Source of the DNA: an uncultured Chloroflexia bacterium | GTDB taxonomy: Bacteria > Chloroflexota > Anaerolineae > Fen-1058 | DNA: 64,000 nt | NCBI GenBank assembly: GCA_963844815.1 | Contig: CAWJPR010000018.1 | Location: 462,498-526,497 of the forward strand | Direction of reading: 5' to 3' | Shown: piece by piece, positions 1 through 53,260 of the stretch | Layout: each line of letters starts with the position of its first letter | How positions within the stretch are numbered: position 1 is the stretch's first letter | Position numbers and translations under genes: made by a program | The notes under the pieces: model-generated | Databases searched by the model: none | What the model was told of the DNA's origin: nothing | The model's input: the letters and a program-made list of their open reading frames with translations, nothing else

Positions 1-237
1 GACGCGATCGTGATCCCGTATCCCGGCCGCAAGTCGCTGGAGACCATCGCCGCCATGGTCAGCGTGCCGTGGCTGATCAGGCCGGGCCATTTGGAAAATG
101 CGGCCGCCGAACTGAGTGAGGCGATCGAGCTGGGGAGCGCGGGTGTGTGGTTCGATCACGCGGTGTTTGCCCGCTCGAATCCGGTGGAACTGCTGCAGGC
201 CTATGCGGCGCAGGTCCATCCAGCGGCAGTCGCTTAA
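1..237 (+). CDS. C-terminal fragment of a gene that starts upstream of the window (hypothetical; product not identified)
   Basis: ORF is open from base 1 in the frame of ORF 10..237; stop at 235-237; high-GC codon usage. Confidence 0.3.
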   Translation, partial: DAIVIPYPGRKSLETIAAMVSVPWLIRPGHLENAAAELSEAIELGSAGVWFDHAVFARSNPVELLQAYAAQVHPAAVA

Positions 238-263: not shown

Positions 264-1550
264 ATGCACAACGGTTTAGAAGCCCGCATGGCACGCTTGT
301 TCAACCGGCACGGCGACGGCCGCGCGGTGTGCGTCGCCGCCGATCACGGTTACATGAGCGACGTGACGCCGAACGTCGTGAAGCTGAGGCCGATCACGGA
401 AGCCGTGATTCGCGGCGGGGTAGACGGCATCTTGATGAGCCCCGGCCAGGCCGCGCGCCTCGCGCCGCTGTTTCAGGGACGCGCCGGCCCGGCGTTGATC
501 GTGCGCGCCGACTGGATGAACCTGCCCCGGCTGGGCAGCGCCAACGTCAGCAACGCCGTGCCGCAGCGCGCGCTCTTTCATCAAAAAGTGTTGACGGCCG
601 AGCAGGCGCTGTCACTCGGCGCGACGGCGATCACGATCTATTTGTTTCTGGGTTACGGCGATGAGGTCGAGGCGGCGGGAATTGACTCCTGCGCGAAGTT
701 CGCGGCGGAGTGCCGCAAGGCCGGGCTGCCGTGCATCATGGAGCCGCTGGCCGTGGGCGGCCAGGTGACCGGCGCGAACGTCGTCGAAGTGCTCACGCTC
801 GGCGCGCGCATCTGCGTCGAAATCGGCGCAGACGCTTTGAAGATCCCGTACACGGGCGATGTCGATTCGTTTGCCAATCTGTGCCGCGTCTCGCAGGTGC
901 CCGTGCTCGTGCTCGGCGGCGCCCGCTCGGACAACGAGCGCGACGCGCTGGAACTGTTCGCCGAAGGGCTGGAGGCCGGTTGTCACGGCTGCCTGATGGG
1001 CCGCAACGTCACCAAATCGCCCGACCCCGAAAAGTTGATGCGCCAGCTCTGCCAGGTCGCGCATGAAGGTTACACCGTCGACGAGGCGCTGCGCGGCGAG
1101 CGCTGGAACTACGTCCGCTTGAAGGCCGCGGCCAGCAAATGCACCGGCTGCCAGCTGTGCGTGACTGCCTGCGTGGGCGCGCACGACAGCGGCGCGTTCA
1201 GCACGCACCTGGCGCGGCTGCACATCGATCCGGTGAAGTTGGGCCAGCACAAGGTGATGTTCTGCACGCTGTGCAAGAAGTGCCTCGACGTCTGTCCGAC
1301 AGGCGCCCTGAAGTGGCACGACAGCACGGGCGCGGTGGAACTGATCGTGGAGCAGTGCACGGCGTGCGACAAGTGCGTGGAGATTTGCCCGACCAGGGTG
1401 ATCGAGCGCAGTGACACGGCGGTGCGCTTCGACGGCACCGAGCTGCCGTGGTATCCCATCGTGTGCGACCTGTGCGGCGGCGATCCGGCCTGCGCGCGCA
1501 TCTGCCCGACCGAGGCGATCACTATCGACGAGCGCAAGAGGTTTCCATAG
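264..1550 (+). CDS. class I aldolase (DhnA/FbaB/LsrF-type TIM barrel) fused to a C-terminal 2x[4Fe-4S] polyferredoxin domain
   Basis: ATG at 264 begins MHNGLEARMARLF..., a DhnA-family aldolase-like N-terminal about 290 aa; C-terminal about 140 aa carries four CxxCxxCxxxCP-type cysteine clusters (CTGCQLCVTAC, CTLCKKCLDVCP, CTACDKCVEICP, CDLCGGDPACARICP); directly upstream of the AOR gene. Confidence 0.8.
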   Translation: MHNGLEARMARLFNRHGDGRAVCVAADHGYMSDVTPNVVKLRPITEAVIRGGVDGILMSPGQAARLAPLFQGRAGPALIVRADWMNLPRLGSANVSNAVPQRALFHQKVLTAEQALSLGATAITIYLFLGYGDEVEAAGIDSCAKFAAECRKAGLPCIMEPLAVGGQVTGANVVEVLTLGARICVEIGADALKIPYTGDVDSFANLCRVSQVPVLVLGGARSDNERDALELFAEGLEAGCHGCLMGRNVTKSPDPEKLMRQLCQVAHEGYTVDEALRGERWNYVRLKAAASKCTGCQLCVTACVGAHDSGAFSTHLARLHIDPVKLGQHKVMFCTLCKKCLDVCPTGALKWHDSTGAVELIVEQCTACDKCVEICPTRVIERSDTAVRFDGTELPWYPIVCDLCGGDPACARICPTEAITIDERKRFP

Positions 1551-1565
1551 TGCTAAGGTGAATGT

Positions 1566-3384
1566 ATGAATCCAACACAACGCGGTTATTGCAACCGTAT
1601 CTTGCGCGTGAATTTGAGCAGCGGCCGCATCTCGACCGAGCCGCTGCCCGAACCCGCCTTGCGCCTGCTGCTGGGGGGCAAGGGCCTGGGCGCCTACTTC
1701 CTGTTCAACGAACAGGCGCCGGGCGTGGAGGCGCTGTCGCCGGACAACAACTTGATCTTCAACGTCGGCCCGCTCACCGGCACGACCGCGCCAACGGCCG
1801 GCCGTTTTGGCAGCACGACGAAGAGCCCGGCCACCGGCACATACTCCGATGCCTATTGCGGCGGCTACTTCGGGCAGACGCTGAAATATGCGGGTTACGA
1901 CGCGCTGATCGTGCAGGGCGCGGCGAGCGAGCCCGTCTCCATCGTGATCGACGACGATCGGGTGGAGGTCCGCTCCGCGCGCGAGTTGTGGGGCACGACG
2001 ATCACCGCTGCCACCGAGCGCCTGTGGCGCGACTTCGGGCGCGATTGGGAATCGCTGGTCATCGGGCCGCCGGGCGAGAAACAAACCAACATCGCCAGCA
2101 TCTTCAACGATACGCGCGCGCTGGCGCGCGGCGGCGTGGGCGCGGTGATGGGCTCGAAGCATCTGAAGGCCGTCGTCGCGCGCGGAACCGGCCGGGTGAC
2201 GGTGGCCGATCGGGCGCGGTTCGATCGCGCGCTGCAGCTCGCCAGCCGGGCCGTGCGCATGTCCAGCGCCATTACTCGCATGAATCAGGAAGGCACGGCC
2301 AACATCCTGGAATTCGTCAATATGGCGGGCGCCCTGCCCACGCGCAACTTTCAGCAGGGGCAGTTTGAAGGCGCGGACGAGATCAGCGGCGAGGCCTGGA
2401 AGGAAAAATCCTGGAAGCAGAATTACGCCTGCTTCGGCTGTCCCATCGCCTGCAGCAAGATCGCGCGCGAGGTCGACGGCAAAGTGCTGGAAGGGCCGGA
2501 ATACGAGACGATCTACGCCATGGGATCGAACTGCGCCATTGCCGATCACGATACAATCATCCGCATGTCGCTGCTGTGCGACGAGTACGGCATCGACACG
2601 ATCAGCGCCGGAGCGATCGCGGCCTTCGTGATGGAGTTGTTCGAGAAAGGCTTCATCCGCGCCAGTGAGCTCGACGGCCTTGAGCCGCGCTTCGGCGATT
2701 GTCGCGCGGCGCTGGCGCTGATCGACAAGCTGGCGAAGGGGGAAGGCTGCGGCGAGTGGTTGAGCGAGGGCGTTGCCAGGATTGCGGCGCGCTATCCCGG
2801 GTCTGACGCGTTTGCCATGCACGTCAAGGGGCTGGAGATGCCGGCCTATCATCCCAACGGCGCGAAGGGCATGGCGCTGGGTTACGCGGTATCCGAGCGC
2901 GGCGCCTGTCACCTGCGCGGCGCGCCGCTGACCGAAGTGCTGGGCGGGGCCGATCCCTTGAGCATTGCCGGCAAGGCGAAGTTGTTCCGCGAGCATCAGT
3001 CCGAGTCGGCCCTGTGGAATAGCGCGGTGCTGTGCTGCTTCCCCGGCTTTGGCATGAGCCTGAAAGAGACTGTGGCAATTGGTCAACGCCGCCACCGGTT
3101 TTGATTATGCGACGGCGCGCGAGTTCGAGTCAGTGGGCGAGCGCATCAATACCCTGGCGCGGCTGTTCAATGTGCGCGAAGGCCTGGCGCGCCGGCAGGA
3201 CACGCTGCCCGCGCGGAATCTCTCGCAGCCGCTGCAAGGCAGCGGGCCGGCCAAAGGCCACGTGGTGGAACTCGATCCGATGCTGGACGAGTATTACGCG
3301 CTGATGGGCTGGGATCAGAACGGCGTGCCGACGCCGGAGCGTTTGAAGGAAATGCAGTTGGATCAACTGCTGACGGCAGCCTAA
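1566..3384 (+). CDS. aor: aldehyde:ferredoxin oxidoreductase (tungsten/molybdopterin AOR family); reading frame broken by an apparent 1-nt insertion near 3066-3070
   Basis: ORF 1566..3104 has AOR N-terminal and central domains (MNPTQRGYCNRILRVNLSSG..., GGKGLGAYFL). The AOR C-terminal domain continues in ORF 3079..3384 (LVNAATGFDY...). The junction 'gcaattggtc' versus an expected 'gcattggtc' indicates one extra base. Confidence 0.85.
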
Positions 3385-3608: not shown

Positions 3609-4652
3609 ATGCCCACTCTTTGGAACAACGCATACACCCGATCGGAATTGCAGCGCCACGTCATGGATCTGCGGCACCTGGCCGACATCCGCCCGTTTGA
3701 GTTGAGCGACGGCCCGGAACGCGGGGGGCGCTGCCTGCACGTGCGCAACGCCGCCGGTCTTGACTTCACCATCCTGGCCGATCGCGGCCTGGGCCTGTAT
3801 GACGCGCAGTTTCAAGGCGTGCCGCTGGCTTTCATCTCCTCCGTCGGCGCGACGCACCCCGCCTACGCCGAGCAGCCCGGCTTCGGCTGGCTGCGCACGT
3901 GGCCCGGCGGTTTTCTCACGCCCTGCGGGCTGACGCAAGTGGGCAGCCCGTGCAACGACAACGGCGAAGAATTGGGCATCCACGGACGCCTGTCCAATCT
4001 GGCGGCGCAGCAATTGCAGTGGGGCGCCGAGTGGCAGAACGATCGCTACGTGCTGTGGGCCGCAGGCGCGCTGCGCGAAACCTCGGTCTTTGGCGTGAAC
4101 CTCGTCATGAAGCGCCGCATCAGCACCACACTGGACGAGGCCAAAATGTGGATCGAAGATCGGATCGAGAATCACGGCTTCGAACCCGCGCCGTTGATGC
4201 TGCTGCAGCACTTCAGTCTGGGCTTTCCGCTGGCGGACGCGACCACCCGCCTGGTTTTGCCGGCCCATACGACCGTGCCGCGCGACGACGCCGCGCGTCC
4301 CGGCCTCGATCACTGCCTTGAATTCGACGATCCGATCGACGACTATCAAGAGCAGGTCTTTTATCACGACCTGCAAGCCGGCGCGGACGGCAAGGTGGAA
4401 GTGCGCCTGGTCAATTCCGCCTTTAACCACGGGCAGGGATTGGGCGTGGCGTGGCGCTACCCCAAAGCGGACTATCCCGTGCTGGTCGAATGGAAGATGA
4501 TGCGCGCGGGCTTCTATGCCGTCGGCGTCGAGCCGGGCAACTGCCGCGTGGAAGGGCGGGTTGCCGAACGCGAGCGCGGCACGCTGCAGATGATCGCGCC
4601 ACAGGAGGCGCGCACGTTCAGCATCGAGCTGGAGTTCTTCAACAACCAGTAA
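3609..4652 (+). CDS. hypothetical protein (possibly aldose-epimerase/DUF4432-like, as seen in sugar-catabolic clusters; family assignment tentative)
   Basis: ATG at 3609 preceded by AGGAG; 347-aa ORF with coding-like composition. The upstream part of listed ORF 3387.. lacks coding character. Confidence 0.7.
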   Translation: MPTLWNNAYTRSELQRHVMDLRHLADIRPFELSDGPERGGRCLHVRNAAGLDFTILADRGLGLYDAQFQGVPLAFISSVGATHPAYAEQPGFGWLRTWPGGFLTPCGLTQVGSPCNDNGEELGIHGRLSNLAAQQLQWGAEWQNDRYVLWAAGALRETSVFGVNLVMKRRISTTLDEAKMWIEDRIENHGFEPAPLMLLQHFSLGFPLADATTRLVLPAHTTVPRDDAARPGLDHCLEFDDPIDDYQEQVFYHDLQAGADGKVEVRLVNSAFNHGQGLGVAWRYPKADYPVLVEWKMMRAGFYAVGVEPGNCRVEGRVAERERGTLQMIAPQEARTFSIELEFFNNQ

Positions 4653-4818: not shown

Positions 4819-5709
4819 ATGAAACTCTATGGCGGTATTGAAGCCGGCGGCACCAAATTTGTCTGCGTGATCGGCAGCGGGCCGGACGACATCGTGGCCG
4901 AGGCGCGCATCGCGACCACGCAGCCCGCGGAAACCATCGGGCACACGATCGACTTCTTCAAGCGGCACGCGCGCGACTACCCGGTCAGCGCGGTCGGCAT
5001 TGGCTCATTCGGGCCGGTCGATCTCGATCGGGCGTCCGCGACTTACGGCTACATCACCACCACGCCCAAGCCGGGCTGGGCGCAGACCGATCTCTGCGGC
5101 GCGCTCCAGCACACCCTGCAGGTCCCGGTCGCCTTTGACACCGACGTGAACGCGGCGGCCTTTGGCGAGCATCACTGGGTCGCGGAGAATCGTTTACTCG
5201 ATCCGCTGCTCTATCTCACCATCGGCACGGGCATCGGGCTGGGCGCCATCGTCAACGGCAAGCCGCTGCACGGCCTGCTGCATCCCGAAGGGGGCCACAT
5301 GTTATTACCGCACGATCGCACGGTCGATCCCTTTGAGGGCGCGTGTCCCTTTCACGGCGACTGCTGGGAGGGCCTGGCGGCCGGGCCCGCCGTGGAAAAA
5401 CGCTGGCAGCAGCGCGGCGAAACCCTGCCGCCCGATCATCCCGCGTGGCAGCTGGAGGCGCACTACGTGGCGCTGGCCGTGGCGAATTTGATCTATTGCT
5501 TCTCGCCGCGGCGGGTGGTCCTGGGCGGCGGCGTGATGCAGCAGCCGGGCATCATCGATCGCGTCCGGGGCGAAGTGCAGCGCTCGATCAACGGCTATCT
5601 GCAATCCGAGCGGATCACGCGCGACATCGATCAACTGATCGTGCCGCCGGGACTGGGCACGCGCTCCGGGGTGCTGGGCGCGATCGCGCTGGCGATTGCG
5701 GCGGAATAA
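4819..5709 (+). CDS. ROK-family sugar kinase (fructokinase/Mak-like)
   Basis: MKLYGGIEAGGTKFVCV... glycine-rich ATP-binding N-terminus; Zn-binding PEGGHMLLPHDRTVDPFEGACPFHGDCWEGLA motif typical of ROK fructokinases. Confidence 0.85.
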   Translation: MKLYGGIEAGGTKFVCVIGSGPDDIVAEARIATTQPAETIGHTIDFFKRHARDYPVSAVGIGSFGPVDLDRASATYGYITTTPKPGWAQTDLCGALQHTLQVPVAFDTDVNAAAFGEHHWVAENRLLDPLLYLTIGTGIGLGAIVNGKPLHGLLHPEGGHMLLPHDRTVDPFEGACPFHGDCWEGLAAGPAVEKRWQQRGETLPPDHPAWQLEAHYVALAVANLIYCFSPRRVVLGGGVMQQPGIIDRVRGEVQRSINGYLQSERITRDIDQLIVPPGLGTRSGVLGAIALAIAAE

Positions 5710-5925
5710 TCGTAGAGGCGTTTTCGTGCAGGGCAAGTTGGCTACTTGCCCTGCTTTTGTTTATAGAAGACGAATCAAGCGTGAACGGCGCAGGCGTCGG
5801 AAGCGAGGCGGCATGGTGCTCCTGATGGGTTGAGGTTATGCGGCGGGGGAGATGATACCATGAAGTGAATCGAACGACGCCGAGAATGTTTTGCTTGCGT
5901 TTGCCCAGCGTATCATTCGAGCATA
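5683..5925 (+). repeat. left copy of an about 240-bp diverged direct repeat (3' end of fructokinase gene + terminator + 5' end of a downstream ORF)
   Basis: About 70-75% identical to 8536-8775, e.g. gcgatcgcgctggcgattgcggcggaataa versus gcgatggcgctggcgattgcagcggaataa. Confidence 0.6.
5731..5769 (+). terminator. rho-independent terminator after the fructokinase gene
   Basis: gcagggcaag-ttggcta-cttgccctgc stem-loop followed by ttttgtttat. Confidence 0.7.
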
Positions 5926-7785
5926 AATTAGAACGCTGTAGTTTGCGCAGTTTGCTTTACTCAGAAATAGACGATGCTAAGTTGGCGGCTGAACATAAAC
6001 TGTGCCGAAAGATTAGTTGTGCTTTTCCATATATGAAAGTAAGTGTAGTACACTCTAGCAAGAGAGTGTCCATCACGGATTCAATATTTTACGATTACCT
6101 TTCAGGAAGGATGTTGTGGGCTATGGCTAAAAGAACTGATAAACACCACCCAGATCAAATGTGGATGTTTGCAGACCTAGTTGAACAGGCTGACACCATC
6201 TCAGACATTCGAGCACGTGAGTCGCAATTGCGTGGTGAGGCCGAGATTCGTATTTCAGCGCCATCCACTCACAACTTCCCACCCTTGGTTTTTCCACAAC
6301 GGTGGGAATTACTAAAAGCAGAAACCGAAAAACGGAATATTCCAATTAAACCACTCATAATACCAGTGCAGCAGGCGCTTATAGAGATTGAAAAAGAACG
6401 TCGCCAAATCCATGAAACTGGAATGGGACGCTTGTCATCATAAGCGGAGTTTGAGGCAGCGGCAAATCGACTTTTCTAAATTCGCTGGATTTGTTTATTG
6501 GGGGCGTGAGCGTACACACTATTACTCTGCGAACAATTGATCGAAATGAATCTGTCGAGGATAAACTTGCGGCACTGCGACGCGAGAAAAGTGAATTCAC
6601 TGTTATTGTGCTTGAAGGCAAAGAGTCGCCCGGGGCCTTGAAGAGCGAAGAAATCGATATTCTCCTAACAACCCTAAACTCAGACTTTCGCCATGGCGCA
6701 GGGGAAGCATACTCTTTTTGTTATTCCAACAACCTCACAATCTGTTGCGCAGGCAAATAGTCAACGTGCAGCTGATATAGGCGGTATGACATTACGATCC
6801 CGCCCATTCTACATTTTCACCGGTCCCCGCCGAAACGAATACGAGCAGACCACTGATAAGATGCTGCGTGCTTTGAATGATTCGCGAGGACTGTTCGACT
6901 ATGGAATTACTCCCGAAACCGCTAAGGGTTTGACTGAATCTTCTGAATCCATGGGACAATTCATAATCGACTGCTATGAAGAAATCAAGCGTCAGCAGGA
7001 CGCACTTAAAACAGACGGCATTTGAGATTAGGCGAAAGAACCTGCATCTTTGGATGGTCTTTTGCTCCTATGAAGAAGACAATCGCCGAAATTACGATAT
7101 CATACGCGCACTGACCATTAGCAACTTTCAATACGCCCAAGTTGGGCGTATGTTGGTTGGTGAATCCAACGAAATCAAATTCTGGGAAGGAAGGCAGTCG
7201 ACCTTTGCATTGGCTGCACAGTATTTAGACTTGCGAGTAACTTACATGCCGATGAAGACTGCAAACGCCATTGTCACTGCATATGGCAATAAGGGAGCTA
7301 ATTGAGAAACTCAAGAAAATCCCTCTAGAAAGTGGCGAGGCGGCGGTCAAACGCGAGGCAGTTGGGACAATTGCTCAAGAGTCTCTCATGGGTACAGCAC
7401 TTGGAGCATTTCTGCGCGGTGAAGAATTCGTTGAGCGTGATATTGTCCGTCGAAACAAACCCCGAGAGAAACAAAACTCTTTTCAAAGAGATAATGAAAA
7501 CCTCAAATGACAAAGACCTCAACGCCCTTGTTGCCCAAACATTGCGTGATGCAGCAGTAAAGACGCCGAACAGAAATGTTTATACTGAGACTAACGATTG
7601 ATGACGGTGGGCACCTTGTTACGGATATCGCTGTAGTAACGCCGACGGACATTTACTGCATAGAGTTAAAGTGGCGCTCATCTTTGCTGGCCGAGAGTGA
7701 AATAACCAGAGAAACTTTGGACAGAGTAAAAGACTTTTCTATTCAACTACCCGAACTGCGAAACCTTCTAGGAAGGCTCGACTAA
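5865..7785 (+). pseudogene. decayed AT-rich gene broken into at least 7 overlapping frame-shifted ORFs; C-terminal piece has a PD-(D/E)XK-nuclease-like motif
   Basis: Consecutive overlapping ORFs 5865-6443, 6491-6760, 6693-7025, 6976-7305, 7271-7510, 7332-7601, 7576-7785 in shifting frames; last piece has TDIAVVTPTDIYCIELKW (D...ELK); GC far below flanks. Confidence 0.5.
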
Positions 7786-7814
7786 GTTATGCGCTGTGTG
7801 AAGTTCGCGCTTAC

Positions 7815-8234
7815 TCAGGGCGCAAACTGCCGCAAGAATTCGTCGGGGGTGATGATTGAAATCCCACGGAAAGGGTTCAAGGTCAATAAATCCTGATCGC
7901 CGCTAATCAGATAAGCAGCCGCGCCGTTGACGGCCAATTCCAAGTACTTGTCATCCTTGGGATCACGGCAGGCATGAATTTCTTCGGCGATTTCAACCAG
8001 CTGGGCCTCACGAACCAGGGCTTCAATGAATCGATCGCGCTCCTGTGGGAGGATATACCGCTCAAACTTCTCGCGGCACAGGACTTCGATCAACTCAGTC
8101 AGCACCGGCAGCGAAATCAAAATGACAGGCTGCTCCAGAGCGAGACGAAAGGCTTGACCCGGCTTCGAGTGCTCAAAGAGCAATGCGCTGATCGCCACAT
8201 TGGCGTCAAAGATGCAGCATGTATCACTCGTCAC
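7815..8234 (-). CDS. vapC: PIN-domain toxin (VapC-like) of a type II toxin-antitoxin pair
   Basis: 139-aa intact ORF with PIN-like acidic residues (IFDANVAISAL..., ...ISGDQDLL); 11-nt overlap with upstream small ORF. Confidence 0.7.
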   Translation of the reverse strand: MTSDTCCIFDANVAISALLFEHSKPGQAFRLALEQPVILISLPVLTELIEVLCREKFERYILPQERDRFIEALVREAQLVEIAEEIHACRDPKDDKYLELAVNGAAAYLISGDQDLLTLNPFRGISIITPDEFLRQFAP

Positions 8235-8451
8235 TGAGCAGATCCTGCAGCATGTGAGGGGTCAAGCCACGCGCCTGTGCATTGCGGCTGATCTCACTCA
8301 TCACGCGCGTGAGGGATTCGGGAGTTCGCGTCGCCTCCAGCAGGCGCAAGCTTAGCAAGGTTTCCAGTTTCCGCCGCATTTCAGGCGTAACCGATGCGAA
8401 GGCGCGAGCCGCTTGTGGATCAACTTGAATTGTGATGGGAATGGTCGTCAT
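8224..8451 (-). CDS. antitoxin partner of the PIN toxin (small, acidic C-terminus)
   Basis: 75-aa ORF immediately upstream of and overlapping the PIN toxin gene; classic TA arrangement. Confidence 0.6.
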   Translation of the reverse strand: MTTIPITIQVDPQAARAFASVTPEMRRKLETLLSLRLLEATRTPESLTRVMSEISRNAQARGLTPHMLQDLLSDE

Positions 8452-8465
8452 TGCGATACCTCCTG

Positions 8466-11400
8466 CTACACTAATTCTACTGTGAATAAAGGACCGTGAC
8501 CAGGGTCTGACGTGGAGAGTATAGCATAAAGTGATAACGGCGCGATGGCGCTGGCGATTGCAGCGGAATAATGGTCAATGCACAAGGATGGGGCAAGTGA
8601 AAGCTTGCTCCGTTTTTGTTGATGGGAAGGTCGAATAAAGTAACGGCGCAGGTGTTGAAAGTGAGGCGCACAGTGCTCCATGGGCCGGGATATGTGCAAC
8701 GAGAAAGATGATGCCATGAAGCAAGATCGAACGGAAAGCAGAGGCATGATTTTCTTGCATCGCAGGCTCTTTCCTTATCGTATATCCCGTTCTTCCTTCT
8801 CCCGTCGCCACCAATCCGCTTGCCGTTTTGCAGTCTCAATATCATCTACGGCCCATTCTCTTATTCTACGCAACGGATAATTAAGGAACTTCTTTGCTAC
8901 TTCGCGCTTAATCCGCGTCGTGAGGCAATATCGCTAGAATACATCTGTCGACTTTGTGCGCCTGCACAAAATTCAGTGAAAACTAAATCATCATCTTCAA
9001 ACTCCTTTAGAACAAATTCGGTCAGCGCAGGAACGCTCACTTCACCGTTAGAATCGACGTTTGGTAATGGAAGATGTCTTGCGATATGCCTTGCGCCTTC
9101 GACTCCCACCGATTTGACCCATTCAATTACTACATCTGTAGGTAATGCTTGGATGAGGCCCTTATATTGTCCTATATAGAAATGCCAGCCTTTCTCGGCA
9201 TCCAACATCACTTGACCGAGTTGCCTCATCACAATAACAGGGTGCTGTTTTGCAACTCCAGCAAGCACTTTAAGTGCCTCATCTCTGATATAGATTCAAT
9301 TCCGTTGCAATCGCGATCTACTGCGATGCGAGCAACAAGGTCAGGATCATCAATATCGAAAGCGACTCAAGAATCCTTACCCACCAAAAAGACTCTGTTC
9401 CGTACCCCCCTCGACCGATCTCTACTACGGCGCCAAATCAAATCTCTTAATTCACCGTATTCAAGCATCTGGTTTACATCGAAATTCTGCGGATCATTTA
9501 ATCGGTATCAGACAATTTCGACAGCAATTCGCATGCAATTTGCGTTGCCGATTTCGGCTTTGGCTACAAGTGGGCTAAGGATGTTACGAATTCCGATGTT
9601 GTAATTTGTGAGATCCAGCGCACATCTGAAACTTTGAAGGTATTCCGCAGGGACTTAGCCCGAATCAACCAACCGCAAAGCTTCGGGCAAGTGAATGCGT
9701 TACTCCTTGTCCTGCTATGGCTAACTCATAAGCTTATAAACGGGTGCTTGTTGCTCCATGGTATCTAGCCAAACATTAACCGGGTCTGCGAGGCCAGGTG
9801 ACTGCCCTATAAAGCCATAAATGTATCCTCTTGCCAATGCTGCAGATTGATAAATGAAGGCTCAAATTCATTATCATGTCTAGCAATGTTCCTTGAATAT
9901 CTTGTCGTCCAAACTCTTCGCCAAGGACAACAGCACTTCGCGCGTCTGGCGAGAATAACCACCCTGACTCATTTTTGAACAAATCGGTGGCACGAAATTC
10001 AGGCGACAGAAAGCGCGTGCGAAGCTTCTGGTCCAATGATTGAGCAGTGCCAATCAGAATGATAGACCAGACCAACGTCTGGATCAATTCATCACGCTCG
10101 AGTAGCCAATCGGCCTGCCGCCGTATATTTTGACAGTCCTGCGCTCGCATAGATGATGATGCAAATTGCCTAAATTCTTCCAGCATTACCATTAAACGCG
10201 TGCGTACCTTGAGCGATATACGATCACTGGCAAATAGTTTCTGAGTACTCCAGATAACCGTCGCCAAGCAGTGACCGAGTATAAGTAATTCCGATATCAT
10301 ATGCCCCGTCACGGATAAATTGCCTGGTATCAGAAGTGAGTTCGATCAGGAAAGAAATGGCAGCATTCACGCAGATCGTACTGCAGCCGTTCGAGCGATC
10401 GTCTCTCATAATTGCGGCTACTGGTGTTCCATCTTGCAAACTCGTGTGTCGAATTCGATCACGAAAAGCCCCTTGTATCGGTGATGTCGATTCACATCAG
10501 ATCGAATTCTTTGCTTTAATCTATCAAAACGCTGCAAGAATGGGACTGATGTACCTGATAGTATGACCGATAAATCTGATGCCATATGGAAGTGGCATTA
10601 TTGCCGATGATTGGTTCAGACTCCGCCAGAGCAAATCGCAGCAAGATACTTTCGGCCTCATCAAAAAATTCCATCAACGCGACAATCCGCTCAGGTACAA
10701 GCATTGGCGTGCGGTCCCGGCTCCATGTTCCTGCGTTATTGTACTCAATTCCTCTTGTTTCGCTGATTCAATAATTCTACGAAGGACTGGCAAGTAGATT
10801 TCTGGTCTAGTATCAATCAAGATAACAAGGCGATCTACTTTGTCAACATCTGTCAAATCAGCAACTCCTAATGCCATCGCCCATTTTCGAAAAAATTCTC
10901 CAACAAGGCGACGCACCCCCTGTGATGCGCTTTGTGCTACGCGCCTTGAGAATGGTTGCAGAAATAGATTGAGGAATAATTCTTAAAAAATCTTCCGGAT
11001 TTCGTTCAAGCCAGCGTCGCCATGCACCAGAAAAAGCGGCTTCTGCAATAATCTCAGATGTGACATAGAAGTATCGACCACGTCTGCCTACAAACCTGGT
11101 ACATCATGAATCTTATAAGGATATCACTTTCTCTGTTGGAATATTTACGATGCTGCATAGGTCCTTAAGTTCACCGGCCATCTCTCCTGCAAAGCCAATT
11201 CGCGTTACTAACGCTAAGGCTTCAATAACGATCAATTCATCATCTGAAAACGTCGGCGCATATAATCACGCAAATCTTGGATCACTGGTACAACGTGACC
11301 CACTTGGTCTATTTCAGCGTGATGAGCAATCCACATTATCCGCGGCGGGCCTCGCAGAGCCACCGAGCCAAAGACGCGTATGCATGTCGCCTGTCTTCTG

Positions 11401-12600
11401 GCACATAAGGAAAGTTCTGTTTAAGTATTTCGCCAAGTAACTCTTTGGGAATTTTTTGAATCCAAATTTCAGGAGCACCGGCTATCGGACGTTCACCTGC
11501 ATTGTCAATTGCTACTATCCGAATGCGATTAGGATACCCTCTCGTGAGATCGATCAACTTTGCTCGAGTATTGAGCGAGCACTCATCAACAACCAGAATT
11601 CCATAAAGAGTTCGGTCGTTTGCAAGTGCGCCATGCAATTGAACGGCAAAGTGCTCGTCATTTGTATAAATGACAAGATTTTCCTTGCGCCGGCATGTTT
11701 CATGCTTCATAAACCATTCGCGTCTTCAACACCCGCTCTCCTGAATTGGCAGTCAATCTGTCCGTCGAAGTGACAGATTGACGTAATGTCTCAGCATTTC
11801 TCTGGAAAACATCCCACTGCGGAGGTGGAACAAAGGTAGGCGTGATCGCAGTTACGTTGGTTTTCCAAATGTCAAGATGAATAGCCTTACCAACGAGGCT
11901 CGGAGAAAAGATGCGCTGGATTAATGCTGGAAGCCGATTTGCCCGGTAAACAAATATCTGCGGTGAGTATAACATAAACCTAGAGCGCAACAGCGATTTA
12001 TGCTCTGCACACCTTGCTCAAGAACTCTCTCCCATTCATCTACTTTATTTGAGAGGCTATCACAAATACAAAATCGGTAGGCATATCCATTTAAAACACA
12101 CTCTCGGGAGTAGCGTTTGTTAACCTCTTCGAGTAGACTTTCCTTCAGATACATCTCCGGCGTCTGTTGCCTTAAACTGCCATATAGTTCTTTCCATCAT
12201 CCAACCTATAGGATCATCGACAATGCCTTGTTCGACAAGCGTATCAACGCCGCCATCCTGGATATTCACACGTAGATTGGTATGGATGCTCGCTTGCGGC
12301 AGATTGCTTACAGCAACTTGAGATCGAATAATGCTGTCAACTAATTCCGTAGAATCGATCACCGCCGGGTGTTCGTCCTAAATGAATAACATCATGGGCA
12401 TTTATAGTCCACATGTAACACTCCCTCTTCGATCGCTTTGCCAGCACATACAATCTATTTGGTCTGAGTGTAATTTGCTCAAAATGCCAGATTGTTCGAG
12501 TCTTGTAGCATCTGAGGATTAGTATAAGCATAAAGAGAATATAACGATCAACAGCCGCTGCATGCAATTCATGCTGTTGAGTCCTCGCGCACAGTGCCAT
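8466..12600 (-). pseudogene. heavily decayed AT-rich gene(s) on the minus strand (many frameshifts and stops); one fragment has a DExH-like Walker-B-like motif (ILVVDECS)
   Basis: Chain of short overlapping minus-strand ORFs (12337-12600, 12120-12362, 11921-12154, 11700-11990, 11336-11710, 10674-10916, 10516-10704, 10224-10439, 9776-10312, 8897-9268, 8466-8845) in changing frames; low GC. Confidence 0.45.
8536..8775 (+). repeat. right copy of the about 240-bp diverged direct repeat (second, non-functional copy of the fructokinase 3' end ...GAMALAIAAE-stop, hairpin, ORF start MKQDRTESRGM...)
   Basis: aligned by eye with 5683-5925. Confidence 0.6.
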
Positions 12601-12644
12601 CGGCGCTTCCCCGGCGTTGACGAACAGACGCGGGGCAGGGCGGT

Positions 12645-12777
12645 GAGACCTCGGAGGTTTTCATCAGCAGGCAGGCACGGCTCGATCATCGATCAGGTTG
12701 ATGGGCAGGCAATGACAGAAAACCGATAACTCCACGGTTGGGGGCGCTGCGCGAAACCTCCGAGGTCTTGATCAGTT
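12645..12777. repeat. two copies of a 23-26 nt motif with a central palindrome (GAGACCTCGGAGGTTTTCATCAGC / GAAACCTCCGAGGTCTTGATCAG) at the right edge of the AT-rich island
   Basis: 12645-12670 and 12753-12777; read directly. Confidence 0.5.
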
Positions 12778-12846
12778 TGGGGATGGATGCTGCGCAGAGC
12801 GGAAGTTATAGCGTTGCGAACTCTTTACCAATGATCGTAACTCAAA

Positions 12847-15277: not shown

Positions 15278-15370
15278 GGTGGATCTTCTCCTTTCTGATT
15301 CTATAGACGGTGATCAGTCCGGAAAAGATACACCCCCCGATCGGTTTTCTGCGCGGTGCGAGGCCCGGCC

Positions 15371-15970
15371 TTACTCGTCAGGCACCCACTCGGCCGGCGG
15401 GCAATACCTCTCGATGTCTTTGCGGAGCCTGGCCCGGGCGCGGTGCAATCTGATTTTGACCGCGTCCAGACTCACGCCCAGAATTTCGGCGACCTCGCTG
15501 TTGGTAAATCCTTCCATGTCGCTGAGGAGGAGCACGGTGCGATAGTTTGCGGGGAGATGCTCGAGGCGATTCCAGACACAGGCATACATTTCTTGCCGCA
15601 TCACCTCAGTCTCAAGCCGAGGTGCTTTTTCGCCCGTCCACACATCTTGATCTTCCAGTTCCACTTCGTCGTCGCCAATGGCGTCCTGCGCCAATTGGGC
15701 TTGAATGACACGTTGATAAGACGGGCTATCGATCCGATCGAGGGCGGTATTGGTGGCGATGCGATAGAGCCAGGTAGAGAGCTGCGACTCACCCCGAAAA
15801 TTCTTCAGCGCCCGACTGACTTTCACAAAAACTTCCTGCGTCAGATCCTCCGCTTCCTGCTCGCCCACCAGACGGATCAGGTAGCGCTGAATTTTCGGCC
15901 GAAAGTCTGCGTGAATTTGCTCGAATTCCAGATCAGTGTGAATCATATGGATTGCCCCTTGAGCAGACAT
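15371..15970 (-). CDS. RNA polymerase ECF (sigma-70 family) sigma factor
   Basis: Region 2 (IQRYLIRLVG...AEDLTQEVFVKV) and region 4 (LPANYRTVLLLSDMEGFTNSEVAEILGVSLDAVKIRLHRAR) are recognisable; first gene of a minus-strand operon. Confidence 0.85.
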   Translation of the reverse strand: MSAQGAIHMIHTDLEFEQIHADFRPKIQRYLIRLVGEQEAEDLTQEVFVKVSRALKNFRGESQLSTWLYRIATNTALDRIDSPSYQRVIQAQLAQDAIGDDEVELEDQDVWTGEKAPRLETEVMRQEMYACVWNRLEHLPANYRTVLLLSDMEGFTNSEVAEILGVSLDAVKIRLHRARARLRKDIERYCPPAEWVPDE

Positions 15971-16120
15971 AACAAAACGCCCGGTCTCTGCGGCCGAGCG
16001 CTACATCTCATATGTAGCACAGGCTATCGGCGCGCCGCCCGTCATCAAACTGCGTCTGCCTCCCTGACTATCTTCAGTGTACACCCTGTGTCAAGTATAA
16101 TCTTTCGGACAAGATGGACT

Positions 16121-23800: not shown

Positions 23801-24028
23801 TCTTGGGGTTCGGTAAGTCGCAAAGAGGCAGCCCCGATGTCATCATGCGGAGGGCGTCGATCTATCGGCCTATGGCTGCGACGCGCGAGCGCTGCATTTG
23901 CCGGGGCGTTCGACAATCGATTAACGCCGCCTCCCTGTCTGCCTGGTTGACGCATCGGTTATTTGCATCTAGAATCGCCTCGCGTCGTTCGTTGTTCATT
24001 CTCACCAATCGAGAAACTGGAGAAAACT

Positions 24029-37972: not shown

Positions 37973-38161
37973 TACGTCATCTTCTTCATGGTAAACTCCT
38001 CCTGAGAGTATTGGGATGCACTACAGCTTGTTGAGCAATCAGTCGAACAACATCCGCTTTTTTCTTCGTGTAGAGCAGCCTCCTTTCTTTCACGACTGAG
38101 AACGTCGATAAGGGCAGTTATGGAGAAAATAGCCTCATACACTACACTCGCAATGACTGTG

Positions 38162-39877: not shown

Positions 39878-39906
39878 CTGGTTGACTTGCTTCCTGGCCT
39901 GCTTGC

Positions 39907-53256: not shown

Positions 53257-53260
53257 ACCT

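What the first reader, a model, noticed from the sequence alone, without database searches (positions are those of the whole stretch)
264..3384. Class-I aldolase fused to a polyferredoxin, directly upstream of an aldehyde:ferredoxin oxidoreductase
A DhnA/FbaB/LsrF-type aldolase (about 290 aa) carries a C-terminal 2x[4Fe-4S] ferredoxin (four Cys clusters). The next gene is a W/Mo AOR, which uses ferredoxin as electron acceptor. The arrangement suggests a channelled module: aldol cleavage releases an aldehyde (for example glyceraldehyde or its phosphate) that is oxidised by AOR, with electrons passed to the aldolase-tethered ferredoxin. This resembles archaeal GAPOR-type or non-phosphorylative routes but uses a fused aldolase::Fd, a fusion I do not recall as characterised.
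Basis: partly seen in the sequence, partly recalled or inferred. Interest (0 to 1): 0.7.

Follow-up and report, generated by a model that had tools for sequence, protein, structure and literature searches.

The report
Sugar aldolase fused to tungsten-enzyme subunit
A sugar-splitting enzyme is permanently joined to the iron-sulfur "wire" subunit of the aldehyde-oxidising enzyme encoded next to it, an arrangement kept in over 100 uncultured bacterial genomes and found in none of the papers I could search, which suggests the toxic aldehyde made by the first enzyme is handed straight to the second.

Summary

**The fusion.** ORF 264-1550 (428 aa) is a DhnA-type class I aldolase domain joined by a roughly 10-residue linker to a ferredoxin domain. 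The ferredoxin domain has four Cys motifs, so it is a four-cluster [4Fe-4S] domain, not a 2x[4Fe-4S] one. It is collinear with AorA/WorS/WOR5-S, the dedicated small subunit of multi-subunit aldehyde oxidoreductases. It is therefore the AOR's own electron-transfer subunit fused to an aldolase, not a generic ferredoxin.

**The AOR.** The next gene is a canonical AOR (best match P. furiosus AOR, not GAPOR). In this window it is broken by one extra A at 3069. All relatives are intact.

**Not an artefact.** More than 120 protein clusters and about 130 independent loci carry the fusion, mostly Anaerolineae, with divergence down to 35% identity. An AOR follows 110 of 112 Fd-bearing fusions but only 1 of 12 Fd-less orthologues.

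**Third partner.** A Lys-less, catalytically dead aldolase paralogue sits directly upstream; its tail is window 1-237.

**Context.** Neighbours are sugar kinases (PfkB, FGGY), lyxose/mannose and fucose-type isomerases, and GH38.

**Best reading.** A ketose-phosphate is cleaved to DHAP plus a free aldehyde, which the tethered AOR oxidises.

**Status.** A new variant of a known kind. The mechanism is inferred, not shown.

The parts
1..237 (+). C-terminal 78 aa of the upstream DhnA-like paralogue. The gene runs off the window start. It is a non-catalytic 'pseudo-aldolase'.
   Evidence: It gives weak NCBIfam hits to DhnA-type models. It is 74% identical to the about 260-aa gene directly upstream of the fusion in L001, and that gene is present in nearly all related loci. 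The window sequence reads DAIVIPYPGR where the fusion has DALKIPYTGD, so the Schiff-base Lys is Val (nt 10-12). The GG and GRN phosphate loops are also lost. Across about 109 paralogues the Lys position is A/V/I and the Asp27 position is Ser.
264..1550 (+). Aldolase::polyferredoxin fusion gene, 428 aa.
   Evidence: It is a single ORF. Pfam finds DeoC plus Fer4 families. It is conserved full-length in more than 120 protein clusters and about 130 loci. The AlphaFold2 model has pLDDT 80.8 and pTM 0.73.
264..1097 (+). DhnA-type class I aldolase domain, residues 1-278. The Schiff-base Lys193 codon is nt 840-842.
   Evidence: Best solved relatives are MJ0400 ADH synthase/FBP aldolase 2qjg (phmmer 1.8e-30; Foldseek TM 0.84-0.86), T. 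tenax FBP aldolase and LsrF. D27, H28, K193, Y196, G218-G219 and G246-R247-N248 are invariant in 54 of 54 fusions. The catalytic Tyr of MJ0400/T. tenax is Leu/Ile/Met162, and E160-P161 is invariant.
504..584 (+). Family-specific, near-invariant insert in the aldolase domain (residues 81-107, RADWMNxPRLGxxNVxNxxPQ). Role unknown.
   Evidence: It is absent from MJ0400, and the insert's central part (residues 91-93) is gapped in nearly all paralogues, which keep only its start as R.DWtN..Rg. Many of its columns are invariant. AF2 pLDDT is below 50 for residues 85-107.
1122..1547 (+). WorS/AorA-type polyferredoxin domain, residues about 287-428, with four Cys motifs at nt 1140-1172, 1263-1298, 1356-1391 and 1464-1508.
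   Evidence: It aligns collinearly, covering all four motifs, with AorA 8c0z_C (1e-12), P. furiosus WOR5-S 6x1o_B/6x6u_B (1.6e-12) and 9mqx_E (6.5e-9). All 16 Cys are invariant among the 41 closest homologues; among the six most divergent fusions C368 and the Cys before C376 are not invariant. Only 7 residues follow the last aligned position, against 25 in AorA, 41 in WOR5-S and 22 in 9mqx_E.
1566..3384 (+). Aldehyde:ferredoxin oxidoreductase (WorL/AorB-type catalytic subunit), interrupted by a 1-nt insertion.
   Evidence: Pfam finds AFOR_N plus AFOR_C. With the A at 3069 removed the protein is 605 aa. It then matches P. furiosus AOR 1aor at 2.9e-141, followed by 9g7j, 9mqx_D and AorB 8c0z_A. 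The alignment keeps the CxxCxxxC...C cluster ligands and the Glu/His equivalent to Pf E313/H448.
3069..3069 (+). Extra A that shifts the AOR frame. A premature stop follows at 3102-3104, and the remaining 101 codons continue in the +1 frame (3079-3384).
   Evidence: DNA and protein comparison with L053, L002 and L004. The two halves are in one frame in all related loci long enough to judge.
3609..4652 (+). DUF4432 (aldose-epimerase-like) gene, same strand.
   Evidence: Pfam PF14486, E 1.8e-91. It recurs next to the cassette in other loci.
4819..5709 (+). ROK-family sugar kinase, fructokinase-like.
   Evidence: Pfam ROK, E 1.2e-61. The best NCBIfam hit is ScrK at 294 bits, below the cut-off of 400.
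5728..5754 (+). Terminator-like hairpin (11-bp stem plus T-run) that probably ends the transcription unit.
   Evidence: GC drops from about 65% to about 46% right after it.

Best explanation
The window carries a three-gene cassette.
1. A Lys-less, non-catalytic DhnA-like paralogue.
2. A catalytic DhnA-type Schiff-base aldolase whose C-terminus is fused to a four-[4Fe-4S] WorS/AorA-type domain.
3. A canonical tungsten/molybdenum-pterin aldehyde oxidoreductase.

Proposed mechanism:
- A neighbouring sugar kinase (PfkB or FGGY type) makes a ketose phosphate, most likely a ketose-1-phosphate such as fructose-1-P or xylulose-1-P. The ketose comes from mannose/lyxose-type or fucose-type isomerases.
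- The aldolase, probably as a hetero-oligomer with its dead paralogue, cleaves it into DHAP plus a non-phosphorylated aldehyde (glyceraldehyde, glycolaldehyde or lactaldehyde).
- The fused polyferredoxin domain docks the AOR, as WorS docks WorL, so the aldehyde is oxidised to the acid right where it is produced.
- Electrons run from the pterin cofactor to the AOR [4Fe-4S] cluster, through the four clusters of the fused domain, to a soluble low-potential acceptor.
- The very exergonic oxidation pulls the aldol cleavage and keeps the reactive aldehyde low.

What is shown: domain identities, conserved catalytic residues, the fusion, the gene linkage and the contexts.
What is inferred: the physical complex, the direction, the substrate, the acceptor and the channelling.

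In this particular window the AOR gene has a 1-nt frameshift. The module is therefore either freshly inactivated or mis-sequenced here.
For: **Fusion real and conserved.**

**Aldolase domain competent.**
- Schiff-base Lys193, Asp27 and the GG and GRN phosphate loops are invariant in 54 of 54 fusions.
- They are also kept in fusions only 35-43% identical.
- The fold is that of MJ0400.

**Fd domain is the AOR small subunit.** It aligns collinearly over four motifs with AorA, WOR5-S and 9mqx_E. In those enzymes the S subunit packs on the L subunit at about 11-12 A cluster distance (PMC12318220, PMC10413684).

**Linkage.**
- An AOR lies directly downstream in 60 of 61 genome loci and 50 of 51 metagenome loci that carry the Fd domain.
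- It is present in only 0 of 3 and 1 of 9 loci whose orthologous aldolase lacks the Fd domain (Fisher p = 5e-13).
- Gaps between the two genes are mostly 6-34 nt.
- Identities of the two proteins co-vary with r = 0.95 over 90 loci.

**Independent support.** In L149 an unfused aldolase of the same subfamily overlaps the start codon of a 605-aa AOR.

**Syntenic operons exist with and without the Fd+AOR insert.** GH38-PfkB-a-A(::Fd-AOR)-Lyx_isomer-DUF4432.

**Sugar context.** PfkB or FGGY kinase within one or two genes upstream in most annotated contexts, plus Lyx_isomer, Fucose_iso_C, GH38, an ABC sugar transporter and LacI.

**The AOR belongs with the broad-specificity AORs, not GAPOR**.
Against: - No biochemical or structural datum exists for any member. 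The complex, the channelling, the substrate and the metal are inferred.
- The aldolase lacks the catalytic Tyr of characterised DhnA-type aldolases (Leu162). It scores below every curated equivalog cut-off, so its chemistry could differ.
- Contexts are heterogeneous. In some genomes the cassette stands alone (L073). About 20 loci embed it in a 16-gene operon with LarA-, UPF0261-, PEP_hydrolase- and creatininase-like genes of unknown role.
- Several contexts already contain a class II aldolase, which makes the need for a second aldolase unclear.
- One locus (L105) has the fusion but no AOR nearby.
- This window's AOR is frameshifted.
Confidence: 0.55

Rival explanations
1. GAPOR-like glycolytic shunt. 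The aldolase is the organism's FBP aldolase, and the AOR oxidises glyceraldehyde-3-phosphate to 3-phosphoglycerate with ferredoxin, as in archaeal modified glycolysis.
For: - The DhnA family's best-known activity is FBP cleavage, and source annotations call the protein 'class I fructose-bisphosphate aldolase'.
- The phosphate-binding loops are kept.
- The cassette sometimes stands alone, as a central-metabolism module might.
Against: - The AOR scores 42.7 bits against the GAPOR equivalog (cut-off 1300). It is closest to the broad-specificity P. furiosus AOR.
- The aldolase scores 127 bits against the archaeal FBP aldolase model (cut-off 430) and lacks the catalytic Tyr and the Arg of the SYPRGG motif.
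- The cassette usually sits in substrate-specific sugar operons with LacI regulators, isomerases and kinases.
Confidence: 0.12
2. Reverse (reductive or biosynthetic) operation. Reduced ferredoxin drives the AOR to reduce a carboxylic acid to an aldehyde. The tethered aldolase immediately condenses it with DHAP, pulling the unfavourable acid reduction.
For: - AORs are the only enzymes known to reduce non-activated acids (abstract of PMC9295118).
- Tethering an aldehyde-consuming enzyme would help thermodynamically (inference).
- The closest characterised aldolase relative, MJ0400, works biosynthetically (own knowledge).
Against: The recurrent neighbours are catabolic: glycosidase GH38, sugar ABC transporter, LacI repressor, kinases and isomerases. 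No biosynthetic pathway genes recur next to the cassette.
Confidence: 0.1
3. Scaffold only. The aldolase domain and its dead paralogue serve as an oligomerisation platform for the AOR small subunit, replacing the C-terminal helix that makes nanowires in AorA/WorS. The AOR detoxifies aldehydes from elsewhere, and there is no metabolic hand-over.
For: - The Fd domain lacks the C-terminal extension used for filament formation (PMC12318220).
- Solved DhnA-type aldolases carry 10 or 20 chains per entry and are decamers (own knowledge).
- A non-catalytic paralogue is conserved.
- Clade-87 AORs are broad-spectrum detoxifiers (PMC12318220).
Against: - All catalytic and phosphate-binding residues of the fused aldolase are invariant down to 35% identity. 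A pure scaffold would not need that.
- The same aldolase pair exists without Fd/AOR in syntenic sugar operons.
- An unfused aldolase is translationally coupled to an AOR in L149.
Confidence: 0.13
4. Different chemistry. Because the catalytic Tyr is replaced and Glu160-Pro161 is invariant, the 'aldolase' may be an LsrF-like thiolase/transferase or a transaldolase-like enzyme. Its product would then not be the AOR substrate. A sulfosugar route (sulfolactaldehyde to sulfolactate) is one version of this.
For: - LsrF is a DhnA-fold enzyme with non-aldolase chemistry and is among the hits.
- A TauE/SafE-family permease follows the AOR in 25 genome loci.
- SFP aldolases share the Pfam family and fold distantly.
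Against: - An AOR needs an aldehyde, which retro-aldol cleavage supplies.
- LsrF scores far below its cut-off (93 against 297).
- YihT-type aldolases are much more distant (TM about 0.6, 14-20% identity).
- No recurrent glycosidase other than GH38, and no sulfoquinovose-specific gene family, showed up among recurrent neighbours.
- No paper links sulfoquinovose with AOR.
Confidence: 0.08
5. Artefact. The fusion results from a missed stop or an assembly error.
For: None found. The nearby AOR does carry a 1-nt indel, so the assembly is not error-proof.
Against: The same in-frame architecture appears in more than 120 clusters and about 130 loci from independent assemblies and sequencing platforms. 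The junction is conserved.
Confidence: 0.01

Closest known systems
WorSL / AorAB modules of multi-subunit tungsten aldehyde oxidoreductases (Aromatoleum aromaticum AorABC, PDB 8C0Z; Acetomicrobium mobile WorABCSL; P. furiosus WOR5)
   Same: - A catalytic L/B subunit with pterin cofactor and one [4Fe-4S] cluster is encoded next to a small subunit with four CxxCxxCxxxC motifs.
- The window's Fd domain aligns collinearly with AorA, WOR5-S and 9mqx_E.
- The AOR aligns with AorB and 9mqx_D.
   Different: - The small subunit is not free-standing. It is the C-terminal domain of an aldolase.
- It lacks the C-terminal helix that builds the nanowire (PMC12318220, PMC10413684).
- No AorC-like or WorABC-like partner recurs next to the cassette.
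- The published clade-87 types are M, N, BF and U (PMC12318220), and none involves an aldolase.
Pyrococcus furiosus AOR (PDB 1AOR), monomer-type broad-specificity aldehyde:ferredoxin oxidoreductase
   Same: It is the best solved relative of the repaired AOR (2.9e-141 over residues 7-598). The cluster Cys ligands and the Glu/His near the cofactor are conserved.
   Different: Pf AOR has no small subunit and uses free ferredoxin. Here a four-cluster domain is supplied by the neighbouring gene, and the window copy is frameshifted.
DhnA-type (class IA) aldolases: M. jannaschii MJ0400 ADH synthase/FBP aldolase, T. tenax FBP aldolase, E. coli FbaB, LsrF
   Same: TIM-barrel fold (TM 0.84-0.86 to 2qjg). 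The Schiff-base Lys sits in the GAD-x-hK-x-xYTGD motif. Asp in the DHG motif and the GG and GRN phosphate loops are kept.
   Different: - It scores below all curated cut-offs.
- The catalytic Tyr is replaced by Leu, and Arg of PRGG by Val/Tyr.
- It has an invariant Glu-Pro and a conserved 27-residue insert.
- It is paired with a dead paralogue and fused to a polyferredoxin.
Aldolase-dehydrogenase channelling complexes DmpFG / BphI-BphJ (own knowledge, not tested here)
   Same: An aldolase and an aldehyde-oxidising enzyme are encoded side by side and physically joined, so that a toxic aldehyde does not escape. This is what the cassette most plausibly works like.
   Different: Those use a class II (metal) pyruvate aldolase and an NAD/CoA-dependent acylating dehydrogenase in a non-covalent complex. 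Here a class I aldolase is covalently tied to the Fe-S subunit of a pterin enzyme. No tunnel has been demonstrated.
Archaeal non-phosphorylative ED branch and GAPOR glycolysis (own knowledge)
   Same: Aldol cleavage is followed by ferredoxin-linked oxidation of glyceraldehyde (or its phosphate) by an AOR-family enzyme.
   Different: Those use separate, unlinked enzymes, with a KD(P)G aldolase of another family, and GAPOR is a different AOR clade. The GAPOR model was tested here and not met.
GatZ/KbaZ non-catalytic partners of class II tagatose-bisphosphate aldolases (own knowledge)
   Same: It is a precedent for a catalytically inactive aldolase paralogue kept next to, and needed by, the active aldolase.
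   Different: It belongs to a different aldolase class and fold family. The role of the paralogue here is untested.

Membership tests
DhnA-type class I aldolase superfamily (Pfam PF01791 DeoC/LacD) | Pfam score above the gathering cut-off and a TIM-barrel fold like solved members | tested here: met
   PF01791 scores 74.8 bits against a cut-off of 23.8. Foldseek matches 2qjg at E 6e-22 with TM 0.84-0.86.
DhnA-type class I aldolase superfamily (Pfam PF01791 DeoC/LacD) | Schiff-base Lys on the strand carrying the GAD..K..Y.GD motif | tested here: met
   K193 aligns with MJ0400 K184. It is invariant in 54 of 54 fusions and in divergent fusions.
DhnA-type class I aldolase superfamily (Pfam PF01791 DeoC/LacD) | Catalytic Tyr (T. 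tenax Y146 / MJ0400 Y153) acting as proton shuttle | tested here: not met
   The position is Leu162 (L/I/M in all fusions). The neighbouring E160-P161 is invariant.
DhnA-type class I aldolase superfamily (Pfam PF01791 DeoC/LacD) | Aldol cleavage activity on a ketose phosphate | not testable with these tools
   This needs an enzyme assay.
Archaeal/bacterial class I FBP aldolase, ADH synthase or LsrF equivalogs (NCBIfam NF040816, TIGR01949/NF005556, NF006081) | Score at or above the curated equivalog cut-off | tested here: not met
   Scores against cut-offs are 127.5 vs 430, 133.4 vs 299, 173.3 vs 241 and 93 vs 297.
WorS/AorA-type AOR small subunit (four-cluster polyferredoxin) | Four CxxCxxCxxxC(P)-type motifs, collinear with solved small subunits | tested here: met
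   Matches are 8c0z_C residues 42-167 (1e-12), 6x1o_B residues 8-125 (1.6e-12) and 9mqx_E residues 8-130 (6.5e-9). The alignments cover all four motifs, including CDLCGGDPAC. The Cys are conserved.
WorS/AorA-type AOR small subunit (four-cluster polyferredoxin) | Encoded next to a WorL/AorB catalytic subunit gene | tested here: met
   The AOR starts 15 nt downstream in the window. It is directly downstream in 110 of 112 related loci.
WorS/AorA-type AOR small subunit (four-cluster polyferredoxin) | Free-standing subunit with a C-terminal helix that mediates filament/nanowire assembly | tested here: not met
   The domain is fused to an aldolase. Only 7 residues follow the aligned core, against 22-41 in solved homologues. 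The AF2 model ends in a short strand.
WorS/AorA-type AOR small subunit (four-cluster polyferredoxin) | Binds four [4Fe-4S] clusters and contacts the AOR cluster within electron-transfer distance | not testable with these tools
   This needs EPR/metal analysis and a structure or multimer model.
AOR family (WorL; Pfam AFOR_N + AFOR_C) | Both domains present, with the cluster Cys ligands and the catalytic Glu/His | tested here: met
   AFOR_N E 1.5e-71. AFOR_C E 3.9e-91 and 3e-32 on the two fragments. The alignment to 1aor keeps CxxCxxxC...C and the Glu/His.
AOR family (WorL; Pfam AFOR_N + AFOR_C) | Intact reading frame in this window | tested here: not met
   An extra A at 3069 gives a stop at 3102-3104. 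Relatives are intact.
GAPOR (glyceraldehyde-3-phosphate:ferredoxin oxidoreductase, NCBIfam NF040818) | Score at or above the curated cut-off | tested here: not met
   42.7 bits against a cut-off of 1300, matching only residues 52-136.
Clade-87 WOR types M / N / BF / U (PMC12318220) | Subunit composition: L alone; SL plus an FAD subunit; SL plus BfuABC; or SL plus a membrane quinone-linked dehydrogenase | tested here: not met
   An S domain is present, so it is not type M. No FAD-subunit, Bfu or membrane dehydrogenase family recurs beside the cassette. Membership of clade 87 itself was not tested by phylogeny. It is only suggested by the best PDB hits being clade-87 enzymes.

The most novel reading that the evidence does not exclude
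The cassette encodes a previously undescribed fifth architecture of the AOR/WOR family.
- It would be a covalent 'aldolase-AOR metabolon'.
- A heteromeric class I ketose-1-phosphate aldolase (catalytic subunit plus dead paralogue) replaces the nanowire helix as the assembly platform for the four-cluster S domain.
- Several AOR catalytic subunits would then sit around an aldolase ring and oxidise the nascent sugar-derived aldehyde to its acid with ferredoxin reduction.
- This would give one of the few defined physiological substrates for a bacterial AOR.
- It would also define a ferredoxin-yielding fructolysis-like route (ketose to ketose-1-P to DHAP plus glyceraldehyde/glycolaldehyde to acid) in Anaerolineae and relatives.
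Probability: 0.4. Interest if true: 0.75.

Novelty: new variant of a known kind. Interest (0 to 1): 0.62.

Why it matters
- **Physiological role of AORs.** Tungsten/molybdenum AORs are widespread in anaerobes, but to my knowledge their physiological substrates are mostly unknown. They are usually described as broad-spectrum detoxifiers. Here evolution has welded the AOR's electron-transfer subunit to a specific aldehyde-producing enzyme. This points to a defined metabolic job and gives a directly testable substrate hypothesis.
- **New assembly solution.** The published nanowire or 'plug' architectures rely on a C-terminal helix. This fusion suggests an aldolase oligomer serves as the assembly platform instead.
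- **Ecology.** Anaerolineae are abundant sugar fermenters in digesters and sediments. A ferredoxin-linked aldehyde oxidation step in their sugar catabolism would change their predicted energy and hydrogen yields.
- **Engineering.** A ready-made aldolase-AOR fusion is of interest for aldehyde-free cascades and for acid reduction coupled to C-C bond formation.

Tried and rejected
- **Missed stop or artefact at the junction.** Rejected by conservation of the fusion in independent assemblies.
- **Programmed frameshift at 3069.** Considered and thought unlikely from reading the sequence, which shows no slippery motif. All relatives encode one frame. The alternatives, sequencing error or fresh pseudogene, cannot be separated without reads.
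- **Sulfoquinovose/sulfolactaldehyde route.**
  - It was suggested by a TauE/SafE permease after the AOR in 25 genome loci and by SFP aldolases sharing the Pfam family.
  - It is not supported. YihT-type aldolases are only distant fold matches.
  - No sulfosugar-specific family recurs, and no literature link exists.
  - It is not excluded.
- **6-deoxyhexose reading for the 16-gene Anaerolineae operon.** The idea was lactaldehyde to lactate, then a LarA racemase, then a GlcD-like D-lactate dehydrogenase. It is attractive but untested. It is left as an idea because the UPF0261, PEP_hydrolase and creatininase genes remain unexplained.
- **RNA elements.** An Rfam scan of the whole window for riboswitches (for example Moco) found no hit at gathering thresholds.
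- **Window's own contig.** An exact look-up to recover the upstream context found nothing on record.
- **Cultured or annotated carriers.** Foldseek against AFDB50 was unavailable.
  - All related genome hits from the genome-contig scan were MAGs.
  - Cluster look-up gave no taxonomy for four of the five fusion-cluster representatives looked up; P0121 (55% identity) is from an Anaerolineae MAG.
- **Literature.** Searches returned nothing relevant: AOR + polyferredoxin + aldolase; Anaerolineae + AOR + aldolase; WOR family + aldolase; DUF4432; F1P + AOR.
- **Not attempted.**
  - A multimer prediction, because the tool takes single chains only.
  - An AOR phylogeny against the published 92 clades.
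  - Folding of the paralogue.

Full report
**What is in the window**

On the + strand the genes are tightly packed.
- 1-237 is the tail of a gene that runs off the window start.
- After a 26-nt gap, 264-1550 encodes a 428-aa protein.
- After a 15-nt gap, 1566-3384 encodes an aldehyde oxidoreductase.
- Then come a DUF4432 gene (3609-4652) and a ROK sugar kinase (4819-5709).
- A strong terminator-like hairpin follows at 5728-5754, after which GC falls from about 65% to about 46%.

**The fusion is real**

The 428-aa ORF has no interruption. Pfam places a DeoC/LacD aldolase domain at residues 22-250 and Fer4-type domains at about residues 287-425.

The large protein collection returns 120 listed clusters at 73-96% identity. 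All are 398-446 aa and carry both domain types. Other searches agree:
- A scan of one genome per species finds the aldolase in 67 loci, 62 of them with the Fe-S domain. Nearly all are Anaerolineae/Chloroflexota MAGs; the closest is a Thermoflexales MAG at 91%. Two are KSB1/Zhuqueibacterota at about 52%.
- A library of 50%-identity representatives holds further full-length fusions at 55, 43, 42, 41 and 35% identity.
- A metagenome scan seeded with those gives 66 more Fd-bearing loci.

A missed stop or misassembly is excluded.

**The aldolase domain**

The best solved relatives are M. jannaschii MJ0400 (ADH synthase/FBP aldolase, 1.8e-30), T. tenax FBP aldolase and LsrF. An AlphaFold2 model (pLDDT 80.8, pTM 0.73) superposes on MJ0400 with TM 0.84-0.86.

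Conserved features, invariant in 54 of 54 fusions and kept in the most divergent ones:
- Lys193 aligns with the Schiff-base Lys184 of MJ0400.
- Asp27-His28 matches the DHG motif.
- Gly218-Gly219 and Gly246-Arg247-Asn248 match the phosphate loops.

Three differences from characterised members stand out:
- The catalytic Tyr (T. tenax Y146, MJ0400 Y153) is Leu/Ile/Met162, while Glu160-Pro161 just before it is invariant.
- The Arg of the SYPRGG motif is lost.
- A near-invariant 27-residue insert (residues 81-107) is present, and the model cannot place it.

The protein scores below the curated cut-offs of every named equivalog: FBP aldolase, ADH synthase and LsrF.

I therefore file it as a member of the DhnA-type superfamily with an apparently competent Schiff-base and phosphate site, but not as an FBP aldolase. 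Retention of the phosphate loops suggests, by inference, that DHAP or a similar phosphoketone is one product.

**The Fe-S domain**

It has four Cys motifs (16 Cys), all conserved. Searched alone, it aligns collinearly across all four motifs with three solved proteins:
- AorA of the Aromatoleum aromaticum AOR (8c0z_C, 1e-12).
- The small subunit of P. furiosus WOR5 (6x1o_B/6x6u_B, 1.6e-12).
- Chain 9mqx_E (6.5e-9).

The signature CDLCGGDPAC is shared.

In the solved enzymes this subunit binds four [4Fe-4S] clusters. Its N-terminal half packs on the catalytic subunit at about 11-12 A cluster distance. Its C-terminal helix polymerises the complex into a nanowire (PMC10413684, PMC12318220).

Here only 7 residues follow the aligned core, against 22-41 in the solved homologues, so that helix is missing.

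**The AOR**

Pfam finds AFOR_N and AFOR_C, but on two ORFs (1566-3104 and 3079-3384).
- Comparison with intact homologues shows one extra A at 3069.
- Removing it gives a 605-aa protein that reads ...GMSLKELWQLVNAATGF... exactly like the relatives.
- The repaired protein matches P. furiosus AOR at 2.9e-141, then 9g7j, 9mqx_D and AorB. The cluster Cys ligands and the Glu/His near the cofactor are conserved.
- It is not GAPOR (42.7 bits against a cut-off of 1300), nor closest to FOR or WOR5.

All related loci long enough to judge have one frame. The lesion is unique to this sequence. It is either an error or a very recent pseudogene, and I cannot tell which without reads.

**A third, overlooked partner**

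Directly upstream of the fusion, nearly every locus has an about 260-aa gene that is 27-35% identical to the aldolase domain. It is present in 55 of 56 Fd-bearing and 10 of 11 Fd-less metagenome loci with room upstream, and in most genome loci.
- It has no Pfam hit.
- It has lost the Schiff-base Lys (Ala/Val/Ile), the Asp (Ser) and both phosphate loops.
- It keeps scaffold motifs and part of the family-specific insert.
- The window's 1-237 is its tail, with Val at the Lys position.

It is best read as a non-catalytic partner subunit. This is an inference; GatZ/KbaZ are a precedent from my own knowledge.

**Linkage**

| Locus class | Genome loci with AOR directly downstream | Metagenome loci with AOR directly downstream |
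|---|---|---|
| Fusion carries the Fe-S domain | 60 of 61 | 50 of 51 |
| Orthologous aldolase lacks the Fe-S domain | 0 of 3 | 1 of 9 |

- The genome exception, L033, has a small inserted ORF and the contig then ends. The metagenome exception is L105.
- Fisher's exact test gives p = 5e-13.
- Gaps between the two genes are mostly 6-34 nt.
- Identities of the fusion and the AOR to the window proteins co-vary with r = 0.95 over 90 loci, spanning 37-93% and 42-88%.
- Operons that are otherwise syntenic exist with and without the Fd-plus-AOR insert: GH38, PfkB, paralogue, aldolase(::Fd, AOR), lyxose-isomerase-like cupin, DUF4432, DUF2961, URO-D.
- In L149 an unfused aldolase of the same subfamily overlaps the start codon of a 605-aa AOR.

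The Fe-S domain and the AOR thus come and go together, and the aldolase-AOR association has arisen with and without the fusion.

**Context and likely substrate**

Recurrent neighbours were annotated by Pfam:
- PfkB or FGGY sugar kinases within one or two genes upstream.
- D-lyxose/mannose isomerase-type cupins.
- Fucose-isomerase-like and arabinose-isomerase genes.
- GH38 alpha-mannosidase, a sugar ABC transporter and LacI regulators.
- DUF4432, URO-D/B12 methyltransferase parts, and a TauE-family permease after the AOR in 25 genome loci.

The closest relatives of the window show two layouts:
- ABC transporter, Lyx_isomer, PfkB, paralogue, fusion, AOR (L076, 93% identity).
- Class II aldolase, FGGY, DUF4432, paralogue, fusion, AOR (L074, 92% identity).

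The most economical reading is aldose to ketose (isomerase), then ketose phosphate (kinase), then DHAP plus a free aldehyde (this aldolase), then acid (AOR). Mannose/fructose giving glyceraldehyde, or lyxose/xylulose giving glycolaldehyde, are the leading candidates. This is inference from context.

About 20 Anaerolineae loci place the cassette in a 16-gene operon with LarA-, GlcD/GlcF-, UPF0261-, PEP_hydrolase- and creatininase-like genes that I cannot explain. In some genomes the cassette stands alone.

**Mechanism and rivals**

The best explanation (about 0.55) is an aldolase-coupled AOR. The fused S domain docks the AOR, so the aldehyde released by retro-aldol cleavage is oxidised in place. 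Electrons leave through five clusters to a low-potential acceptor. The exergonic oxidation pulls the cleavage and limits aldehyde toxicity.

Rivals:
- A GAPOR-like FBP/GAP shunt (0.12). The failed GAPOR and FBP-aldolase model scores and the sugar-specific contexts speak against it.
- Reverse, reductive operation (0.10). The catabolic neighbours speak against it.
- A pure scaffold role for the aldolase (0.13). The strictly conserved catalytic residues speak against it.
- Non-aldolase chemistry or a sulfosugar route (0.08).
- Artefact (0.01).

**Comparison with what is known**

The parts are known: DhnA-type aldolases, WorS/AorA polyferredoxins and clade-87-like AORs.

The published classification of the AOR clade that holds P. 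furiosus AOR, AorB and A. mobile WorL lists four types: monomeric, NAD-linked, bifurcating, and an uncharacterised membrane-linked type. It states that the clade has no simple WorSL heterodimers (PMC12318220). An S domain fused to an aldolase, with no further redox partner nearby, is not among them.

Full-text searches found no paper that combines AOR, polyferredoxin and aldolase. Database names are only 'class I fructose-bisphosphate aldolase' or '4Fe-4S dicluster domain-containing protein'.

Functionally it most resembles the DmpFG/BphIJ aldolase-dehydrogenase channelling complexes and the archaeal glyceraldehyde:ferredoxin step (own knowledge). It is built from different families and joined covalently. 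I rate it a new variant of a known kind.

**Caveats**
- Nothing here is biochemical.
- All related genomes found are MAGs.
- Clade membership of the AOR was not tested by phylogeny.
- The model is of a single chain.
- This window's AOR copy is broken.

Noticed in passing
window 5800-12800: A low-GC stretch (about 46% against 60-65% elsewhere) begins right after the terminator-like hairpin at 5728-5754. Its ORFs have no Pfam hit except a PIN_3 toxin (7815-8234, minus strand). A small overlapping ORF upstream of it (8224-8451, minus strand) makes a toxin-antitoxin pair likely. The stretch looks like an acquired island.
   Followed up: partly
window 48107-62589: A redox gene cluster. It holds two GltD/NfnB-like Fe-S flavoproteins (48107-49942, 55498-57396), a 970-aa HdrA-like protein with Fer4 domains (49959-52868) and an MTHFR (61558-62589). 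This suggests an Hdr/Nfn/MetF-type, possibly electron-bifurcating, system. It fits a ferredoxin-based anaerobe.
   Followed up: no
window 25816-47368: A second sugar-utilisation region. It holds URO-D-like, Gfo/Idh/MocA, SIS, phosphotriesterase-family and Meth_synt_2-like genes. It also has an ABC ATPase, an unusual 710-aa protein with two periplasmic-binding-domain stretches (35843-37972, minus strand), a ROK regulator and a xylose-isomerase-like TIM.
   Followed up: no
window 15356-16468, 17786-19288(-), 19316-20203(-), 23963-24946, 38120-40105: These are long ORFs with coding-like third-position GC but no Pfam family at E <= 1e-4.
   Followed up: no
L149 5932-8636: An unfused aldolase of the same subfamily (Lys and phosphate loops present) has a stop that overlaps the start of a 605-aa AOR. 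There is no Fe-S domain and no dead paralogue. It is flanked by GH3-like and GlcD-like genes. This is an independent aldolase-AOR pairing.
   Followed up: partly
L105 5186-7233: This is the one metagenome locus where the paralogue and the Fd-bearing fusion are present but no AOR follows. A creatininase-like gene and a sulfatase-like gene lie downstream on the other strand.
   Followed up: partly
L061, L063, L064, L145-L155: These loci carry the paralogue plus a catalytic aldolase but no Fe-S domain and no AOR. They are otherwise syntenic with Fd/AOR-bearing operons (GH38, PfkB, lyxose-isomerase-like cupin, DUF4432, DUF2961, URO-D). This natural with/without comparison would be useful for phylogeny.
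   Followed up: partly
L006-L009, L012, L014, L016, L018, L034, L042, L052, L056, L067 and others: A conserved 16-gene Anaerolineae operon surrounds the cassette. Its order is FGGY, PfkB, xylose-isomerase-like TIM, GlcD-like FAD oxidase, CCG Fe-S protein, TIM, UPF0261, creatininase-like, LarA-like, paralogue, fusion, AOR, TauE permease, UPF0261, PEP_hydrolase-like. The substrate is unknown.
   Followed up: partly
L074 9808-11469; L151 10302-12078: A URO-D-like methyltransferase and a B12-binding protein are encoded next to the cassette. Together they look like a corrinoid methyltransferase pair, perhaps for O-demethylating methylated sugars.
   Followed up: no
L011, L046, L084, L085: These loci carry second, divergent AOR copies (33-43% identical to the cassette AOR) within 10 kb of the cassette. 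In L046 the second copy is followed by a separate polyferredoxin-like hit.
   Followed up: no
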